The translations under genes were made by a program, and so were the position numbers. Positions 10,463-43,204 of a stretch of 45,783 nucleotides of DNA are shown here, piece after piece. The notes below the pieces were generated by a model. It saw nothing but the letters and a program-made list of their open reading frames with translations. It was not told the DNA's origin and searched no databases. Source of the stretch: Minisyncoccia bacterium (lineage in GTDB: Bacteria > Patescibacteriota > Minisyncoccia > Phycocordibacterales > Zambryskibacteraceae). Location of the stretch: the NCBI GenBank assembly GCA_038212375.1, contig JBBQUO010000002.1, positions 1 through 45,783 on the forward strand. The letters are read 5' to 3'. Every line of letters starts with the position of its first letter. Position 1 is the stretch's first letter.

Positions 10463-11227
10463 ATGTCAAAATATATTGTCATCGGGAACTGGAAATTAAA
10501 TCCCGTTTCACCCATTGAAGCAAAAAAATTGTACGCAGGAGTCTTGAAGGTTGCGCAGAAGATGCGCCAGACTGACGTTGTGGTGGTACCTTCTTTTATT
10601 CATATTCCACTGCTTGCTATGAAAAGTAAAAAGCTTTCTCTCGGTGCACAAAATGCATTTGATCAAGACAGTGGCGCATATACGGGCGAAGTCAGTGCGC
10701 TCCAAATCAAAAACGCTGGAGTTACCCATGTCATTGTTGGTCATTCAGAACGTAGGGCGATGGGCGAGACGAGTAATATGGTAAATAATAAAGTTGTTGC
10801 AGTGTTGAAAGCCCGCATGACGCCTATTATCTGTATTGGAGAAGAAGTGCACGACAATCATGGCAACTATCTCGCATTTCTTGAAAACGAAATAAAAATA
10901 GCACTTCGTGGAGTTACCTCAAAAGATCTTTCAAACGTCATTATTGCCTATGAACCTATCTGGGCGATAGGGAAAAATGCAAAAGAAGCGATGAACCCAA
11001 ACACACTTCACGAGACCGTTCTCTATATCCAAAAAGTCCTCGCAGATATATATGGACGCGCTATGGTCAAAAAAGTCCGTATTCTCTACGGTGGATCTGT
11101 TAATCCTGATAATATCGGAGATCTCGTTCAGTTTGGTGCCGTGCAAGGATTTCTTGTGGGCGGTGCGAGCCTATCTGCTGACACGTTTGGAAAACTACTA
11201 ACCATTATTGATACGTATCGTTCATAG
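10463..11227 (+). CDS. tpiA: Triosephosphate isomerase
   Basis: IGNWKLN, VGHSERR, YEPIWAIG and YGGSV motifs. ATG 10463 preferred over the longer track ORF start at 10421. Confidence 0.9.
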   Translation: MSKYIVIGNWKLNPVSPIEAKKLYAGVLKVAQKMRQTDVVVVPSFIHIPLLAMKSKKLSLGAQNAFDQDSGAYTGEVSALQIKNAGVTHVIVGHSERRAMGETSNMVNNKVVAVLKARMTPIICIGEEVHDNHGNYLAFLENEIKIALRGVTSKDLSNVIIAYEPIWAIGKNAKEAMNPNTLHETVLYIQKVLADIYGRAMVKKVRILYGGSVNPDNIGDLVQFGAVQGFLVGGASLSADTFGKLLTIIDTYRS

Positions 11228-13058: not shown

Positions 13059-14783
13059 ATGTTTGCCATGTCCGTAAAATCCTATTCCGTCCGTCCTACT
13101 GTTCCAGAGGAAGCTGCGCTCGAACTTGCCTCGTATCATCCACTTCTACAGAAACTGATGCACGCTCGTGGCATCGCTACCGCACAGGCTGCAAGCAAAT
13201 TTCTCCATCCTGACTACGATCTCGATCTTCATGATCCATTTCTTCTCCTCGGTATGGATATTGCAGTCGCTCGCATTCTGCGTGCTATTGAACAGAATGA
13301 AAAAATTTTGATATACAGTGATTACGACGCTGACGGTATTCCAGGTGGAGTAGTGCTACGAGAATTTTTTGAGAAGATTCAGTACAACAGTGTTGATAAT
13401 TATATCCCACATCGTCATGACGAAGGATACGGACTTCATCTCGAAGCTGTAGAAGGATTTGAAAAGGAGGGGGTCCGTCTCATTATTACTGTAGACTGCG
13501 GAATTGTAGATGTGGCACAAGTAGTGCGCGCTCGTGAACTTGGGATGGACGTTATCATTACCGATCACCACGAACCAGGAAGTGTTCTGCCTCCCGCGAT
13601 CGCGATTATCAATCCAAAGCAGGAAAACTGCACCTACCCTGAAAAAATTCTTTGTGGATCTGGTGTCGTATATAAACTTATCCAGGCGATACTTCAAAAA
13701 AATCGTTTCGATCTTCCTGCTGGAAAAGAAAAATGGTTTCTCGATCTTGTGGGTATGGCGACGCTTTCTGATATGGTACCGCTTGTCGGAGAAAATCGCG
13801 CACTTGCATACTATGGACTGAAAGTATTACAAAAGTCTCCGCGTCCTGGGCTCCAAAGAATGTGGAAGAAGCTCGGGATTCAGCCTTATAATATTACGGA
13901 AGATGATATTGGATTTTCACTTTCTCCACGTATTAATGCTGCGTCTCGTATGGGAAAGCCGCATGATGCATTCAAACTCCTACGAACACATGATCCTGTT
14001 GAGGCAGACGAAGCAACCGAACATTTGAGTAACATAAATGACGAACGTAAAGGTGTTGTGGCATCGCTTGTCAAAGAAATTAAAAAACATCTTCGTGAAC
14101 GTGAGCTTGCCGGACCGCTCCCAAAAGTGCTGGTCGTCGGTGATCCGCTTTGGAAACCTTCTCTTCTTGGGCTCGCCGCCAATAGTGTGCAGGATGATTT
14201 TCCCCATCCTATGTTTTTTTGGGGAAGAAATGGTGAAAATCTCATCAAAGGATCCTGTCGCTCTGAAGGGCAGACGAATCTCATCGCACTTATGGAAGCT
14301 GCAAAAGATGCATTCACACAGTTTGGCGGACACAAAATGGCAGGAGGATTTGCAGTTTCATTTGAAAAAATCCACACACTTGAAGATTCCCTCAATGTTG
14401 CCTATGCATCACTTCCTGATGTCGGGAAAAAAGAAGATATATTTCTTGATGCAGAACTCCAGCTTTCTGATGTGAACTGGAATACGTATCGACATATCGA
14501 ACAGCTCGCTCCATTCGGTGTAGGAAATCCAAAGCCGCTGTTTCTGATTCGTGGTGCAGAAGTGAACGAAGTAAAATTATTCGGAAAAGAGAAAAACCAT
14601 CTCGAAGTTTCATTTGCGGGTGAACGCAAACCAATTAAAGCTATTAGCTTCTTTTCAACACCAGAAAGTTTTGCAGTGGTGCCGGAAGTAGGGAAGAAGC
14701 TGGATATCGTGGTAAGTCTTGAGAAATCTACCTTCAGAAACTTCCCCGAGCTAAGACTCCGAATTGTTGATATTATTACATAA
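13059..14783 (+). CDS. recJ: Single-stranded-DNA-specific exonuclease RecJ
   Basis: DHH-family motifs DYDADG, DCG, TDHH and GGHKMAGG. ATG 13068 is an alternative start. Confidence 0.9.
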   Translation: MFAMSVKSYSVRPTVPEEAALELASYHPLLQKLMHARGIATAQAASKFLHPDYDLDLHDPFLLLGMDIAVARILRAIEQNEKILIYSDYDADGIPGGVVLREFFEKIQYNSVDNYIPHRHDEGYGLHLEAVEGFEKEGVRLIITVDCGIVDVAQVVRARELGMDVIITDHHEPGSVLPPAIAIINPKQENCTYPEKILCGSGVVYKLIQAILQKNRFDLPAGKEKWFLDLVGMATLSDMVPLVGENRALAYYGLKVLQKSPRPGLQRMWKKLGIQPYNITEDDIGFSLSPRINAASRMGKPHDAFKLLRTHDPVEADEATEHLSNINDERKGVVASLVKEIKKHLRERELAGPLPKVLVVGDPLWKPSLLGLAANSVQDDFPHPMFFWGRNGENLIKGSCRSEGQTNLIALMEAAKDAFTQFGGHKMAGGFAVSFEKIHTLEDSLNVAYASLPDVGKKEDIFLDAELQLSDVNWNTYRHIEQLAPFGVGNPKPLFLIRGAEVNEVKLFGKEKNHLEVSFAGERKPIKAISFFSTPESFAVVPEVGKKLDIVVSLEKSTFRNFPELRLRIVDIIT

Positions 14784-15538
14784 TGAAAGCTGAAAATACT
14801 ATTTTTACTGACGGGTCGTCTCGAGGGAACCCAGGTCCTGGTGGCTGGGGTGCGATTATCGTTTTTTCTGATGAAAAAACGATAATGAATAATGAATATC
14901 GAATGACGAATAATTCAGTCCAGGAAATCGGAGGGATGGTATCTCACACTACTAATAATAGAATGGAATTAACTGCAGTTATTGAAGCGCTAACCTTTGC
15001 ATCAAAAATTGCCATTCCTCATTCGTTATTCATTATTCATTTGGATTCCAGCTATGTCATGAACGGTGCAACAAAGTGGATCTACGGTTGGCAGAAGAAC
15101 AACTGGAAGACCAGTACAAAGGCAGATGTACTCAATGTAGATTTGTGGCAGAAGCTTGCCCGAGTGCTCCCACTCCTTACGATCGAATGGAAACTCGTAA
15201 AGGGTCACTCGGGAGTACCAGCAAACGAACGTTGCGACGCTATAGCAACAAGTTTTGCAGATGGCGACAAACCTCACCTGTACAGCGGAAATCTTGATTC
15301 CTATGAAATTGATTTACACATTCCAGTATCAAAAGCTCAGGGTTCTAAACTAAAACCTAAAAGCTCTCGAGCTCCTGCATATTCATATGTAAGTCAGGTA
15401 GATGGCGTTATACAAACTCATGGTACATGGGCAGAGTGTGAGCAGAGAGTAAAAGGAGTAAAGAAAACCAAATTTAAAAAATCTATCTCTTCAGCAGACG
15501 AGAAATTTATTATTGATTCATGGAAGACTTCTCACTAA
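14783..15538 (+). CDS. rnhA: RNase HI with an internal insertion and a C-terminal hybrid-binding (Cauli_VI-like) domain
   Basis: TDGSSRGNPGPGGWG, TTNNRMEL, DSSYV and KGHSGVPANERCD match RNase HI. C-terminal YSYVSQVDGVIQTHGTWAECEQRVKGVKKTKFKK matches the RNase H1 HBD pattern. TAATG overlap with recJ. Confidence 0.85.
   Translation: MKAENTIFTDGSSRGNPGPGGWGAIIVFSDEKTIMNNEYRMTNNSVQEIGGMVSHTTNNRMELTAVIEALTFASKIAIPHSLFIIHLDSSYVMNGATKWIYGWQKNNWKTSTKADVLNVDLWQKLARVLPLLTIEWKLVKGHSGVPANERCDAIATSFADGDKPHLYSGNLDSYEIDLHIPVSKAQGSKLKPKSSRAPAYSYVSQVDGVIQTHGTWAECEQRVKGVKKTKFKKSISSADEKFIIDSWKTSH
14884..15041. repeat. 28-nt inverted repeat (26/28 complementary) with a 102-nt spacer inside rnhA; each arm is four in-phase heptads
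   Basis: Left arm aatGAATaatGAATatcGAATgacGAAT (14884-14911). Right arm ATTCctcATTCgttATTCattATTCatt (15014-15041). Mismatches at 14899/15026 and 14907/15018. Confidence 0.9.
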
Positions 15539-19463: not shown

Positions 19464-19513
19464 GAATTATGAATGAGGAACTGTGAATAAAGCGAACCTT
19501 TGATTCAGAATTC
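19464..19513. repeat. Heptad array GAAT/GAAC x4 followed by ATTC x2, in the rpmB 5' leader / divergent intergenic region
   Basis: gaattat gaatgag gaactgt gaataaa starting at 19464, 19471, 19478, 19485. ATTC at 19503 and 19510. Confidence 0.8.
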
Positions 19514-19602
19514 ATGACCCCTTCTTCTAGACCGTCCATGCTACCACAGAGCACTAAATATGCAAGACTCTGAAACGCTTCAGTGTATGGTACTATTTCG
19601 CG

Positions 19603-23203: not shown

Positions 23204-23310
23204 ATAAGCTGTAGGGTAGTATTTCTATTGCTTCTCATGGGGTTTTGGGATATTCTTGAGGGCAATTGGCAGGAGACTGCTCATTTTTGTTCAACTTTTA
23301 TTTATCAAAG

Positions 23311-23345
23311 CTAACCGCTAAAACCTAACCCCTATAAGCTAAATT
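23311..23345 (+). repeat. Five exactly 7-nt-phased CTA(A/T) heptads immediately upstream of fusA
   Basis: ctaaccg ctaaaac ctaaccc ctataag ctaaatt with CTA at 23311, 23318, 23325, 23332, 23339. ATG at 23348. Confidence 0.85.
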
Positions 23346-27145: not shown

Positions 27146-27193
27146 GAATACCGAATAGTGAATAGGGAATAAAGCTCAATTCACATTCATTCA
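27146..27193 (+). repeat. Heptad array GAATA x4 followed by ATTC x3, in the tuf-rpsJ spacer
   Basis: gaatacc gaatagt gaatagg gaataaa starting at 27146, 27153, 27160, 27167. ATTC at 27179, 27185, 27189. rpsJ ATG at 27199. Confidence 0.85.
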
Positions 27194-27198
27194 CGATA

Positions 27199-41780: not shown

Positions 41781-42380
41781 ATGAAACCACAAAAAGAACG
41801 CAGTTTTGTCATTATTAAGCCGGATGGAGTACAAAGGACACTTATTGGAGAGATTATCAGTCGCATTGAGCGCACTGGGCTAAAAGTCGTTGCGATCAAG
41901 ATGTTTGTACCAGACAGGGCTCGTGCTACCCAACATTATGGGAAAGATGATGCATGGTGCGAAAAGGTAGGAGCTCGAACTATTGAAAACATTGAGAAAG
42001 GGGGCGGAAGGCCAGAAAAAGCTGCTATCGAATATGGCCGAGATATCATCAATGCACTGCTGAATTATATGACTTGTGGACCAGTCGTGGCGATGGTAAT
42101 TGAGGGAAACCATGCTGTTGGTATTGTTAAAAAGCTCGTAGGAGGTACTGAGCCCCTTACGTCAGACGTAGGAACGATTCGAGGTGATTTCACTGTGGAT
42201 TCGTATTCTACAGCAAATGTGGGTGGTAGGGCTGTACGAAATCTTATTCACTGCACAGATGTACCTGAAGAAGCGCAGAGAGAGATCGATATTTGGTTCA
42301 AGCCAGAAGATATTATTGATTATCGATTAGTCCAAGAACAGATTCTCTACGACGTAAATATTGATGGAATTCTTGAATAA
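41781..42380 (+). CDS. ndk: Nucleoside diphosphate kinase (long form with an internal insertion)
   Basis: ERSFVIIKPDGVQRTLIGEIISRIE, GTIRGDF and NLIHCTD (active-site His). Confidence 0.85.
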   Translation: MKPQKERSFVIIKPDGVQRTLIGEIISRIERTGLKVVAIKMFVPDRARATQHYGKDDAWCEKVGARTIENIEKGGGRPEKAAIEYGRDIINALLNYMTCGPVVAMVIEGNHAVGIVKKLVGGTEPLTSDVGTIRGDFTVDSYSTANVGGRAVRNLIHCTDVPEEAQREIDIWFKPEDIIDYRLVQEQILYDVNIDGILE

Positions 42381-42382
42381 TG

Positions 42383-42418
42383 AAAAACAAAAAACCTCGT
42401 AAGAGATTTTTTGTTTTT
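42383..42418 (+). terminator. Rho-independent terminator after ndk
   Basis: AAAAACAAAAAACCTC gtaa GAGATTTTTTGTTTTT: 16 positions, 1 mismatch. Confidence 0.7.
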
Positions 42419-42527
42419 AGCATAAGGCCAAGAATCTGTCGGTTTTTCCATCGGAGCTTTTCTTTTTATACCCTTTGTTTTCTAATGTCTTATCCACCTA
42501 CTATTCATCTTTTTATAAGACTATAAT

Positions 42528-42698
42528 CCTTTGTAGGGTTATACAGCAAATTTTCTAGGACAAATAACTATTCAGGGAATCTCATATTGTATTGCCTCTT
42601 GGGGCAATTCTGCGGATACCCACCTATGTACACGTACTAGGGAATTATGCATATAACCCTACATGAGATCCCCATTCGAATTTCGAATGGGGTTTTCG
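42528..42698 (+). ncRNA. Candidate structured small RNA of unknown class: rod-like fold plus its own terminator
   Basis: TATAAG/TATAAT boxes at 42514-42527. 12-bp closing helix 42532-42543/42652-42663. 10-bp helix 42549-42558/42637-42646. Helix 42575-42582/42614-42621. Apical hairpin 42591-42596/42603-42608. Terminator CCCCATTCGA att TCGAATGGGG tttt at 42670-42696. No ORF. Confidence 0.5.
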
Positions 42699-42793
42699 TA
42701 TGGTTTAACCTTGATAGTACGTCTATTGAGGAATGTAGCGGGGATTGATAGTTTTCAATCAAAATAGTATATACGTATCTGAAGATAACAAGA

Positions 42794-42805: not shown

Positions 42806-43204
42806 ATGAATTTTCGTAATACGCTTCTTCCAACGTGTATATTGGCTCTCTTTGTATATTATCTCCATATTACAGCGCTGAGAGAGCATCTCTATTTCCA
42901 TCATTGGTGGTTTCACATGATCATTCACGTTCTTACTGGTGCGGTGCTCGCTCTGGCTACCTTGTACATCTATGCTGGCATCTCTTCTCGAAAGGGGGAA
43001 AGTTTTACAAAACTTGCTGCAGTTGCATTACCGTTTGTACTTCTGTGTGCGGTAGGGTGGGAAATATTCGAACTTATGACGGGACTTATTTATATTACTG
43101 GCACTGACTATACTATCGATACAACAAAGGGAATTTTTACGGGACTTGCTGGAGGATTATTTGGTATTTCGTATGCACATTTTATTCATAAAAGAACGAG
43201 TTAA
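42806..43204 (+). CDS. Hypothetical 4-TM membrane protein with a His-rich first loop
   Basis: Hydrophobic helices plus HLYFHHWWFHMIIH and GWEIFEL. Family not recognised. Confidence 0.6.
   Translation: MNFRNTLLPTCILALFVYYLHITALREHLYFHHWWFHMIIHVLTGAVLALATLYIYAGISSRKGESFTKLAAVALPFVLLCAVGWEIFELMTGLIYITGTDYTIDTTKGIFTGLAGGLFGISYAHFIHKRTS

What the first reader, a model, noticed from the sequence alone, without database searches (positions are those of the whole stretch)
14884..15041. Near-perfect 28-nt inverted repeat made of 7-nt GAAT/ATTC heptads inside the RNase H coding sequence
Left arm 14884-14911 (aatGAATaatGAATatcGAATgacGAAT) is the reverse complement of right arm 15014-15041 (ATTCctcATTCgttATTCattATTCatt) at 26 of 28 positions. 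The mismatches are 14899/15026 and 14907/15018, and the arms are 102 nt apart. Each arm is four in-phase heptads: GAAT at 14887, 14894, 14901, 14908 and ATTC at 15014, 15021, 15028, 15035. The reading frame stays open. The left arm encodes MNNEYRMTNN, which sits in a segment that is extra relative to E. coli RNase HI between GAIL and TTNNRMEL. The right arm encodes IPHSLFIIH, part of the core strand before DSSYV. The mRNA should therefore carry a long dsRNA stem enclosing the TTNNRMEL codons. That stem could be an RNase III-type substrate or a protein-binding duplex. The same protein carries a duplex/hybrid-binding domain, so autoregulation is conceivable but is pure inference. Complementarity of this length is not expected by chance.
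Basis: partly seen in the sequence, partly recalled or inferred. Interest (0 to 1): 0.72.

Follow-up and report, generated by a model that had tools for sequence, protein, structure and literature searches.

The report
Inverted 7-base repeats inside RNase H gene
Two stretches of an RNase H gene in a tiny uncultured (Patescibacteria) bacterium are mirror-image runs of 7-base repeats, most likely made and kept alike by DNA copying errors in tolerant protein loops, not by a conserved regulatory RNA stem.

Summary
Arms 14884-14911 and 15014-15041 are 26/28 complementary, each is four in-phase heptads (GAATNNN / NNNATTC), and this is far beyond chance. The arms are codon-for-codon antisense (MNNEYRMTN vs IPHSLFIIH).

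I compared 63 distinct orthologous rnhA genes from Patescibacteria. Lineages with an insertion in the β2-β3 loop (site 1) nearly always carry three features:
- a 6-14 bp coding hairpin at the start of the insertion (window 14855-14886), with clear compensatory changes;
- 7- or 14-nt tandem repeats at site 1 and at the αA-β4 junction (site 2);
- lineage-specific repeat units that evolve in concert.

Lineages without the insertion have none of these. The site 1-site 2 complementarity is near-perfect only in this window. In the closest relatives only the GAAT:ATTC cores pair, four of ten have no pairing, and one lineage pairs site 1 with an upstream array instead. Period-7/14 repeats are also enriched elsewhere in these genomes.

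Best reading (confidence about 0.5): heptanucleotide slippage tracts plus template-switch homogenisation, forming a "coding quasi-palindrome" in permissive loops. A regulatory dsRNA stem or autoregulation is not supported by covariation, though hairpin 1 leaves that door partly open. This is a new variant of a known kind, of moderate interest.

The parts
14783..15538 (+). rnhA: RNase HI catalytic domain plus C-terminal hybrid-binding domain (251 aa). It lies in a conserved recJ-rnhA-comEC arrangement.
   Evidence: Pfam RNase_H E=3e-38. C-terminal profile hits 1QHK and 3BSU. AF2 mean pLDDT 90. Synteny is shared with L081-L092.
14855..14886 (+). Hairpin 1: perfect 14-bp coding palindrome ATTATCGTTTTTTC / tgat / GAAAAAACGATAAT. 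It covers the end of strand β2 and the start of the site-1 insertion, and overlaps the left arm by 3 nt.
   Evidence: the repeat finder I4/I13. It is present in the nearest orthologues with different sequences: 93.7% of cells paired, 6 of 14 pairs with compensatory change, 0/500 shuffles. It is absent from all 32 orthologues without the insertion and is at least 6 bp in 22 of 31 with it.
14884..14911 (+). Left arm: four heptads (AAT)GAAT-AAT-GAAT-ATC-GAAT-GAC-GAAT encoding (I)MNNEYRMTN. It is the site-1 insertion in the β2-β3 loop.
   Evidence: The AF2 model places residues 29-44 in a low-confidence loop. Orthologues consistently use NCG-AAT and CGA-ATG codons here.
14912..15013 (+). 102-nt spacer enclosed by the arms. 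It encodes NSVQEIGGMVSH-TTNNRMEL (catalytic Glu) and helix αA. This is conserved core sequence, not inserted DNA.
   Evidence: Alignment. Reverse-complementing 14884-15041 introduces stop codons.
15014..15041 (+). Right arm: four heptads ATTC-CTC-ATTC-GTT-ATTC-ATT-ATTC-ATT encoding IPHSLFIIH. It spans the αA-β4 loop and the start of strand β4 (site 2). It is the codon-for-codon antisense of the left arm.
   Evidence: AF2 shows a loop at 77-81 and a strand at 82-87. The orthologous site carries lineage-specific 7/14-nt arrays in 23 of 31 insertion-bearing orthologues.
19464..19516 (+). Related element: intergenic GAAT-heptad array (x4, one GAAC) followed by an ATTC x2 partner. It sits between the divergent rpmB (L28) and M50 peptidase genes.
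   Evidence: The orthologous intergenic region of L083 (15511-15577) carries GAAT x5 / ATTC x4.
27146..27194 (+). Related element: intergenic GAAT-heptad array x4 followed by ATTCAC/ATTC repeats. It lies between the tuf stop and the rpsJ start.

Best explanation
The two arms are short heptanucleotide tandem-repeat tracts in opposite orientation. They sit at two indel-tolerant places in a Patescibacteria RNase HI gene: the β2-β3 loop (site 1) and the αA-β4 junction (site 2).

Proposed mechanism (inferred):
1. In this lineage, 7-nt units expand and turn over by replication slippage.
2. The site-1 insertion was built from reverse-complement copies of nearby gene sequence and is repeatedly re-homogenised against it by intramolecular template switching (quasi-palindrome correction). 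Its first 14 nt are the complement of the preceding β2 codons (hairpin 1). The next 28 nt are the complement of site 2.
3. Protein-level selection then decides which positions may match.

In this genome the process has run almost to completion, giving 26/28 complementarity. The mRNA or ssDNA stem is then a by-product, not a conserved regulatory device.

Shown: the anatomy, its recurrence across lineages, concerted evolution of the arrays, and the lack of covariation in the long stem. Inferred: slippage and template switching as the causes.
For: 1. The whole site-1 insertion is accounted for by reverse-complement copies. 14873-14886 is the complement of 14855-14868 (14/14), and 14884-14911 is the complement of 15014-15041 (26/28). 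Together these are 39 nt, against about 42 nt extra relative to the 16-residue baseline.

2. Both mismatches sit where perfect pairing would damage the protein. At 14899, pairing would turn TAT into a TAA stop. At 14907/15018, the pair involves the middle bases of Thr (MTNN) and Pro (IPHS), residues conserved in the nearest relatives.

3. The features travel together across 63 distinct orthologues.
- 32 without the insertion: 0 hairpins of 6 bp or more, 0 site-1 heptads, 2 site-2 heptads, 0 inverted matches.
- 31 with the insertion: 22 hairpins of 6 bp or more, 14 site-1 heptads, 23 site-2 heptads, 10 inverted matches of score 9 or more, and only 1 direct match.

4. Repeat units differ by lineage: CTCATTC x4 perfect (L083), AAACTCA x4.7 perfect (L102), AAGCTAN, CTAnAGA, CAACCYA and GATTTAN. 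They evolve in concert. Between L135 and L138 the flanks are 86-88% identical but the array is 59%, and every unit has changed the same way.

5. L137 has complementary arms built from a different unit (GATTTAN / NTAAATC). L112 pairs site 1 with an upstream array. So complementarity recurs, but without a fixed architecture.

6. Period-7/14 repeats are a property of the lineage.
- 84 and 37 in 560 kb of Patescibacteria loci, against 11 and 2 after codon-block shuffling, and 14 and 11 in 460 kb from other phyla.
- Outside rnhA, 15 per 100 kb in insertion-bearing lineages against 6.4 per 100 kb in the others.

7. The left-arm peptide lies in a low-confidence surface loop.

8. The arrays are translated. 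In L154 (AAGCTAN), three of the four bases at the one variable position are constrained by stop-codon avoidance (sequence, my reading).

9. Published precedent. Heptanucleotides are the commonest long simple-sequence-repeat class in repeat-rich prokaryotes and are ascribed to polymerase slippage (Mrazek 2007, as summarised in PMC4679880). Template switching can create stems and make multi-base 'compensatory' changes (PMC8794818). Conversion has been proposed for coding palindromes (PMC6649704).
Against: - Neither slippage nor template switching was observed directly. No copy-number polymorphism turned up among the near-identical locus pairs I had.
- Hairpin 1 shows strong compensatory change. 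That is equally what selection for a structure would produce.
- rnhA carries about half of all period-7/14 arrays found while making up about 8% of the sequence sampled. 'Permissive loops' may not fully explain this. The sample is also centred on rnhA.
- The right arm runs into core strand β4, so it is not confined to a loop.
- Array length differences between orthologues are 3-9 nt, not multiples of 21, so simple unit slippage is not the whole story.
- Reverse-complement 8-mer coverage of site-1 insertions is only moderately above control (0.28 vs 0.11).
Confidence: 0.5

Rival explanations
1. Selected cis-acting RNA structure. Hairpin 1 and/or the long GAAU:AUUC stem in the rnhA mRNA is bound by the enzyme's own hybrid/dsRNA-binding domain, or cut by RNase III, to set RNase H expression.
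For: - Folding is strong and significant.
- Hairpin 1 is kept with 6 of 14 compensatory pairs across 9 orthologues, and 0/500 shuffles reach the observed score.
- GAAT:ATTC core pairing is shared by a sub-clade of 6-7 orthologues.
- Inverted similarity between the sites is much commoner than direct similarity (10 vs 1 of 31).
- In L112 the partner array covers the start codon, which could occlude initiation.
- The protein has a hybrid-binding domain.
Against: - Covariation in the long stem is weak and limited to invariant cores.
- The stem is absent in 4 of the 10 nearest orthologues and in most other insertion-bearing lineages.
- The partner position is not fixed.
- Half of the family has neither hairpin nor arrays but keeps the hybrid-binding domain.
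- There is no Rfam match.
- Non-Watson-Crick cells in hairpin 1 show no G·U over A·C bias that would point to the RNA strand (4 vs 3; my count on the alignment).
- Template switching also yields 'compensatory' changes (PMC8794818).
Confidence: 0.17
2. Periodic binding platform. The (GAAT-N3)n arrays, intergenic and intragenic, are sites for a multimeric RNA- or DNA-binding protein with 7-nt register. They would be comparable to the TAACTGA heptamer arrays or the HutP (UAG-N4) sites. The rnhA arms would be two such sites.
For: - GAAT and ATTC are the commonest heptad-phased 4-mers in the seven longest of these loci, ahead of AAAA.
- About 30 exact arrays of three or more units occur in 560 kb, against about 0.1 expected by my composition estimate.
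- Several lie just before start codons or between ribosomal-protein genes. The TAACTGA arrays are placed similarly (PMC4679880).
- The rpmB/M50 intergenic element is shared by the window and L083.
Against: - Arrays at the same rnhA sites use many unrelated units in other lineages, so no single sequence-specific binder explains the phenomenon.
- No candidate protein was identified.
- Intragenic placement inside a catalytic domain has no evident logic.
Confidence: 0.1
3. DNA-level switch. Either phase variation of rnhA by gain or loss of one 7-nt unit (a frameshift), or inversion of the 102-nt segment between the 28-bp arms (an intragenic inverton), turns the enzyme off and on.
For: - The unit length is not a multiple of 3.
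- Perfect tracts exist in relatives (L083 x4, L102 x4.7).
- Inversion would give a stop-containing null allele.
- A natural null allele of an orthologue exists: L129 is L121 with a 31-nt deletion.
Against: - The window's tracts are imperfect (2-3 variable bases per unit), so they are poor slippage substrates.
- No frameshifted heptad variant appeared among about 110 loci.
- The L129 deletion is unrelated to the arrays.
- The arms are not conserved well enough in relatives to serve a recombinase.
- No recombinase was looked for or seen next to the gene.
Confidence: 0.07
4. In-frame selfish palindromic element, in the manner of Rickettsia palindromic elements or MITEs, inserted into rnhA.
For: - The extra sequence is palindromic, in frame and surface-exposed.
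- Loosely similar GAAT/ATTC hairpins occur in intergenic DNA.
Against: - The two arms are separated by 102 nt of conserved catalytic core, so this is not one contiguous insertion.
- The 28-mer has no other copy in the window.
- Repeat units differ by lineage at the same site, which fits in-situ turnover and not insertion of a shared element.
Confidence: 0.04

Closest known systems
Coding palindromes in Nematomorpha mitochondrial genes (Mikhailov et al. 2019, PMC6649704)
   Same: - Both arms of the inverted repeat lie inside a functional protein-coding gene and are translated.
- Arms are near-perfect despite protein constraint.
- Gain and loss between species is dynamic.
- Conversion or template switching has been proposed as the maintaining force, with no function demonstrated.
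   Different: - Here the arms are only 14 and 28 nt (up to 284 bp there).
- They are made of 7-nt tandem repeats.
- They occur in a bacterial (Patescibacteria) chromosome.
- Within this window they are concentrated in one gene family, not spread over many genes.
Heptanucleotide long simple sequence repeats of prokaryotes, including cyanobacterial/Beggiatoaceae TAACTGA arrays (Mrazek et al. 2007 as summarised in PMC4679880; MacGregor 2015, PMC4679880)
   Same: - Tandem 7-nt units with 2-6 copies.
- Enriched in particular lineages.
- Often lie just upstream of start codons and within ribosomal-protein operons.
- Occasionally sit inside ORFs at tolerant positions.
- Slippage has been proposed as their origin.
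   Different: - There is no single conserved unit. Units are lineage- and site-specific, with a conserved core (4 nt in the GAAT/ATTC arrays) and variable spacer bases.
- Arrays sit inside the catalytic domain of a conserved enzyme.
- They often occur as inverted pairs.
Quasi-palindrome template-switch mutation (Ripley/Lovett model; Mönttinen & Löytynoja 2022, PMC8794818; yeast coding examples PMC8604942)
   Same: Reverse-complement copying of adjacent sequence explains three things: an insertion made entirely of complements of its flanks, perfect stems, and multi-base 'compensatory' differences between orthologues.
   Different: The mechanism is inferred here, not reconstructed event by event. 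One of the two templates is about 100 nt away, and both partners are tandem repeats.
Rickettsia palindromic elements (in-frame selfish insertions; my own knowledge, also cited in PMC6649704)
   Same: Palindromic extra sequence tolerated in frame at a surface position of a conserved protein.
   Different: It is not a dispersed multi-copy family and not a single contiguous insert. The arms flank essential core codons.

Membership tests
Heptanucleotide simple sequence repeat (slippage tract) | Head-to-tail units of 7 nt, three or more copies | tested here: met
   TRF reports period 7 at 14882-14914 (4.7 copies, 76% matches) and at 15021-15041 (3.0 copies, 92%). GAAT and ATTC are phased at 7 nt, four times each.
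Heptanucleotide simple sequence repeat (slippage tract) | Lineage-wide excess of period-7 tracts over other periods and over shuffled sequence | tested here: met
   84 period-7 and 37 period-14 tracts in 560 kb, against 11 and 2 after shuffling and 14 and 11 in other phyla. Outside rnhA, 15 per 100 kb against 6.4 per 100 kb.
Heptanucleotide simple sequence repeat (slippage tract) | Copy-number polymorphism between strains or reads | not testable with these tools
   No reads are available. Near-identical locus pairs (L081/L082, L088/L109, L085/L086) had identical arrays. Concerted evolution between L135 and L138 is indirect support.
Coding palindrome / quasi-palindrome maintained by template switching | Both arms inside one ORF and translated | tested here: met
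   The ORF is intact and homologous throughout. Arrays avoid stop codons.
Coding palindrome / quasi-palindrome maintained by template switching | Complementarity beyond what the protein sequence and codon usage give | tested here: met
   0 of 20,000 synonymous redraws reach the long repeat's score. 70 of 20,000 reach hairpin 1.
Coding palindrome / quasi-palindrome maintained by template switching | Observed conversion events (multi-base changes matching the opposite arm on a resolved phylogeny) | tested here: inconclusive
   Window-specific GCG>ATG and AAA>TAT changes in the left arm match the right arm (my reading). There is no ancestral reconstruction, and the nearest relative is only 64% identical.
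Conserved cis-regulatory RNA structure | Base pairs maintained by covariation across orthologues | tested here: not met
   Long stem: 69% of cells paired, only the cores, covariation score 0.123 vs 0.094 with 34/500 shuffles reaching it, and absent in L081, L089, L090 and L091. Hairpin 1 taken alone does meet this feature.
Conserved cis-regulatory RNA structure | Match to a described RNA family | tested here: not met
   The Rfam gathering-threshold scan of the whole window gave 0 hits.
In-frame selfish palindromic element (RPE/MITE-like) | Dispersed multi-copy family of related sequence | tested here: not met
   The arm 28-mer occurs only at the two arms with up to 3 mismatches. Only generic GAAT arrays occur elsewhere. 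Only 45.8 kb of the genome was available.
In-frame selfish palindromic element (RPE/MITE-like) | One contiguous insertion relative to insertion-free homologues | tested here: not met
   The arms flank the conserved TTNNRMEL/αA core.
Intragenic inverton | Inverted repeats flanking a segment found in both orientations | not testable with these tools
   The repeats are present. The inverted form would contain stop codons. There are no reads to look for junctions.
Phase-variable contingency locus | Long perfect tract, with on/off length variants | tested here: not met
   The window's tracts are imperfect. No frameshifted heptad alleles appeared among the fetched loci.

The most novel reading that the evidence does not exclude
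The coding hairpin and heptad arrays of Patescibacteria rnhA may be a selected nucleic-acid module and not mutational debris. One version is a dsRNA or periodic platform through which the enzyme's own hybrid-binding domain, or another 7-nt-register binder, controls RNase H synthesis. The other is a built-in repeat-driven generator of loop variants and off-states of RNase H. Either way, the GAAT/ATTC hairpins in ribosomal-protein intergenic regions would belong to the same system.
Probability: 0.15. Interest if true: 0.75.

Novelty: new variant of a known kind. Interest (0 to 1): 0.5.

Why it matters
It shows a conserved housekeeping enzyme gene in candidate-phyla-radiation bacteria being remodelled at fixed loop positions. 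The remodelling comes from 7-nt tandem repeats and reverse-complement copying, producing protein insertions whose two halves are codon-for-codon antisense.

If the mutational reading is right, this is a clean bacterial example of slippage plus template switching creating new protein segments. It also shows how such a process can mimic RNA covariation, which is a caution for structure-based RNA discovery.

If the hairpin proves functional, it would be a rare coding-region regulatory element tied to a nuclease with a duplex-binding domain.

Tried and rejected
- **Genome-collection scan with the full-length alignment.** I switched to exact look-ups and to a scan with the C-terminal domain alignment.
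- **Searches with no result.** Rfam found nothing, there are no tRNA or tmRNA genes, and there is no phage similarity.
- **Internal promoter or terminator.** Consensus matches were at background level.
- **Direct-repeat relation in L089, L090 and L143.** I first thought their two sites were related as direct repeats. Scoring did not bear this out (direct scores 4-7).
- **Inversion between the arms as a recoding device.** Rejected, because the inverted form has stop codons. Only an off-switch remains conceivable.
- **Frameshifted alleles at the arrays.** I looked among the loci where my motif parser failed. Most were parser misses, and the one real disruption (L129) is a 31-nt deletion unrelated to the heptads.
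- **G·U versus A·C asymmetry in hairpin 1, to separate RNA-level from DNA-level maintenance.** 4 vs 3 cells, which is uninformative.
- **Reverse-complement 8-mer coverage of insertions.** Only moderate enrichment (0.28 vs 0.11).
- **First AF2 job.** I reran it without that sequence.
- **Chance or codon-composition artefact.** Rejected.
Full report
**1. The observation**

Arms 14884-14911 and 15014-15041 are 28 nt, 26/28 complementary and 102 nt apart, with mismatches at 14899/15026 and 14907/15018. Each arm is four heptads in phase, GAAT-N3 and N3-ATTC. TRF reports period 7 at both places.

The arms lie in ORF 14783-15538. This is an RNase HI (Pfam E=3e-38) with a C-terminal hybrid-binding domain (profile hits to 1QHK and 3BSU). 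It sits in a recJ-rnhA-comEC arrangement typical of Patescibacteria. The nearest database protein is only 64% identical.

ATG/CAT, AAT/ATT, GAA/TTC and CGA/TCG give MNNEYRMTN on the left and IPHSLFIIH on the right.

Immediately upstream, and overlapping the left arm by 3 nt, is a perfect 14-bp palindrome with a 4-nt loop at 14855-14886. I call it hairpin 1.

**2. More than chance?**

Yes, on four counts.
- The 28-mer occurs only at the two arms with up to 3 mismatches, against 0 expected.
- All other strong hairpins in the window are intergenic terminator-like stems.
- With the protein sequence fixed and codons redrawn from the window's own usage, 0 of 20,000 redraws reach the observed complementarity (score 22, maximum 17). 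For hairpin 1, 70 of 20,000 do.
- The region folds with both structures as RNA (-54 kcal/mol, z=-4.5) and as DNA (z=-5.4).

**3. Orthologues**

I fetched ten syntenic orthologues by exact protein look-up and about 50 more by a metagenome scan with the C-terminal domain. This gave 63 distinct rnhA sequences.

The baseline family has 16 residues between GAI and TTNNRMEL and about 21 residues between TTNNRME and DSSY. About half of the lineages have an insertion at the first position, the β2-β3 loop ("site 1"). Those lineages usually also have extra sequence at the second position, the αA-β4 junction ("site 2").

The DNA of these insertions is strikingly regular.
- Site 2 is a 7-nt or 14-nt tandem array in 23 of 31 insertion-bearing orthologues, against 2 of 32 without the insertion.
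- Site 1 is such an array in 14 of 31, against 0 of 32.
- The insertion begins with a hairpin of 6 bp or more, formed with the preceding β2 codons, in 22 of 31, against 0 of 32.
- The repeat unit differs by lineage: CTCATTC x4 perfect (L083), AAACTCA x4.7 perfect (L102), AAGCTAN (L154), CTAnAGA (L156), CAACCYA (L135), GATTTAN (L137) and ACGAAAG x3.7 (L089).
- Close relatives differ by the same change in every unit. Between L135 and L138 the flanks are 86-88% identical and the array 59%. This is concerted evolution, so the arrays turn over in place.
- A third hot spot is the linker before the hybrid-binding domain.
- In rnhA genes of other phyla, period 7 is not enriched.

**4. Is the long stem conserved?**

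Only in part.
- Cognate site 1-site 2 complementarity scores 22 in the window. It scores 14, 13, 11 and 10 in L085, L087, L084 and L083, and 11 in L137 with a different unit. It is at background in L081, L089, L090, L091, L102 and L143, among others.
- On the protein-guided alignment of nine orthologues, 69% of cells pair. These are the invariant GAAT:ATTC cores. The 3-nt spacers mostly do not pair, and covariation is barely above the shuffled control.
- In L112 the site-1 GAAT array pairs with an ATTC array lying over the start codon, not with site 2.

So complementarity between site 1 and some nearby array recurs. Inverted matches of score 9 or more occur in 10 of 31 orthologues and direct matches in 1 of 31. 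But there is no fixed architecture.

Hairpin 1 behaves differently. Across nine orthologues, 93.7% of cells pair, 6 of 14 pairs show changes on both sides, 0 of 500 shuffles reach the observed score, and slid controls give 39-62% pairing.

**5. Protein context**

The AF2 model has mean pLDDT 90.
- Residues 29-44, which include the left-arm peptide, form a low-confidence loop between β2 (18-28) and β3 (45-56).
- The right arm covers the loop at 77-81 and the start of β4 (82-87).
- The arrays are translated. Frames are kept in all orthologues, and in L154 three of the four bases at the one variable position are constrained by stop-codon avoidance (sequence, my reading).
- Both mismatches in the window's repeat fall where perfect pairing would hurt the protein. 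TAT would become a TAA stop, and the other mismatch involves the middle bases of a conserved Thr and a conserved Pro.

**6. Genome context**

Period-7/14 tandem repeats are enriched throughout these Patescibacteria loci: 84 and 37 in 560 kb, against 11 and 2 after codon-block shuffling, and 14 and 11 in 460 kb of other phyla. Outside rnhA they are 2.3 times denser in the lineages that carry the rnhA insertion.

GAAT and ATTC are the commonest heptad-phased 4-mers. Arrays of them, often as inverted pairs forming hairpins, occur in intergenic regions:
- window 19464-19516, in the rpmB/M50 intergenic region, also present in L083;
- window 27146-27194, between tuf and rpsJ;
- L002 579-655.

Still, about half of all arrays found lie in rnhA, which is about 8% of the sequence sampled. 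The sample is centred on rnhA.

**7. Mechanism**

The best-supported account is mutational. Heptanucleotide tracts are the commonest long simple-sequence-repeat class in repeat-rich prokaryotes and are ascribed to polymerase slippage (Mrazek 2007, as summarised in PMC4679880). Template switching at quasi-palindromes copies the complement of nearby sequence. It can create perfect stems and multi-base "compensatory" changes in a single event (PMC8794818).

In the window, the whole site-1 insertion (about 42 nt) is accounted for by two reverse-complement copies. One is of the 14 nt before it. The other is of the 28 nt at site 2, matching 26/28. That is the expected footprint. Protein selection then fixes which positions may match.

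The closest described case is the coding palindromes of Nematomorpha mitochondria, for which conversion without function was proposed (PMC6649704). I put this reading at about 0.5.

**8. Rivals**

- A selected RNA structure (0.17) keeps some weight because of hairpin 1 and the excess of inverted over direct similarity.
- A periodic protein-binding platform (0.10) keeps some weight because of the intergenic GAAT arrays, which resemble the TAACTGA arrays (PMC4679880).
- DNA switches (0.07) and a selfish in-frame element (0.04) are less likely.
  - The inverted form has stops.
  - No frameshifted heptad alleles were seen.
  - The arm has no further copies.
  - The arms flank conserved core codons.
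- Chance is excluded.

**9. Verdict**

I classify the feature as a new variant of known kinds (heptanucleotide repeats, coding quasi-palindromes).

Two things remain unexplained: why rnhA is so heavily loaded with these arrays, and why hairpin 1 is so well kept. For that reason I score interest at 0.5 and not lower.

Noticed in passing
window 14855-14886: Perfect 14-bp coding hairpin (ATTATCGTTTTTTC tgat GAAAAAACGATAAT) directly upstream of the left arm. It is present with different sequences and compensatory changes in the nearest orthologues, and absent from all orthologues that lack the loop insertion.
   Followed up: yes
window 19464-19516 and 27146-27194: Intergenic GAAT-heptad arrays followed by ATTC partners. 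One lies in the rpmB/M50 divergent region and one between tuf and rpsJ, ending a few nt before the rpsJ start. The first is also present at the orthologous site in L083 (15511-15577).
   Followed up: partly
window 23307-23342: Period-14 tandem array (AAAGCTAACCCCTA x2.6) ending 5 nt before the fusA start codon. Related loci have heptad arrays at S12-S7, before fusA and after fusA (L083 18085-18118 and 20072-20105; L081 18533-18575).
   Followed up: no
L112 678-709, 788-812 and the site-2 array: The GAAT array at site 1 pairs with an ATTC array that covers the rnhA start codon (fold -68 kcal/mol). Separately, the site-2 CAATTTT array is interrupted by a perfect 13-bp palindrome, CCAACCGAAGCCG caa CGGCTTCGGTTGG.
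   Followed up: partly
L088 20622-20699: About eleven CATNNNN heptads immediately upstream of a bAvd gene (accessory gene of diversity-generating retroelements). The same locus has ATGTTCT x6.4 at 13085-13129 between convergent genes.
   Followed up: no
L129 vs L121 (about 2330-2600): Two otherwise identical peat-metagenome contigs differ by a 31-nt deletion that removes the TTNNRMEL catalytic codons and shifts the frame. This is either a natural null allele of rnhA or an assembly error.
   Followed up: partly
rnhA linker in L001 3511-3544, L091 985-1017, L087 10572-10598, L085 1864-1899, L092 2910-2944: A third heptad/14-nt repeat hot spot in the linker between the RNase H domain and the C-terminal hybrid-binding domain (for example AAAGCTA x4.9 in L001).
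   Followed up: partly
L135 vs L138, site 2: Concerted evolution of a coding array: (CAACCYA)5 in one and (CAAGTNA)5 in the other, while flanking codons are 86-88% identical.
   Followed up: partly
window 14781-14785 and 15520-15538: The recJ stop overlaps the rnhA start (TAATG), and rnhA overlaps the comEC start by 19 nt. This suggests translational coupling of recJ-rnhA-comEC. In L083 a GIY-YIG ORF is inserted between rnhA and comEC (10769-11041).
   Followed up: no
window 42383-42700: A cluster of hairpins and a 30-nt imperfect inverted repeat (42532-42561 / 42634-42663) in the 425-nt gap between ORFs ending at 42380 and starting at 42806. There is no Rfam or tRNA hit.
   Followed up: no
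L002 1749-1779: (TTCGAAA) x4.4 array, nearly self-complementary, inside a 591-aa ORF upstream of rnhA (probably recJ, by synteny). This is another heptad array in a genome-maintenance gene.
   Followed up: no
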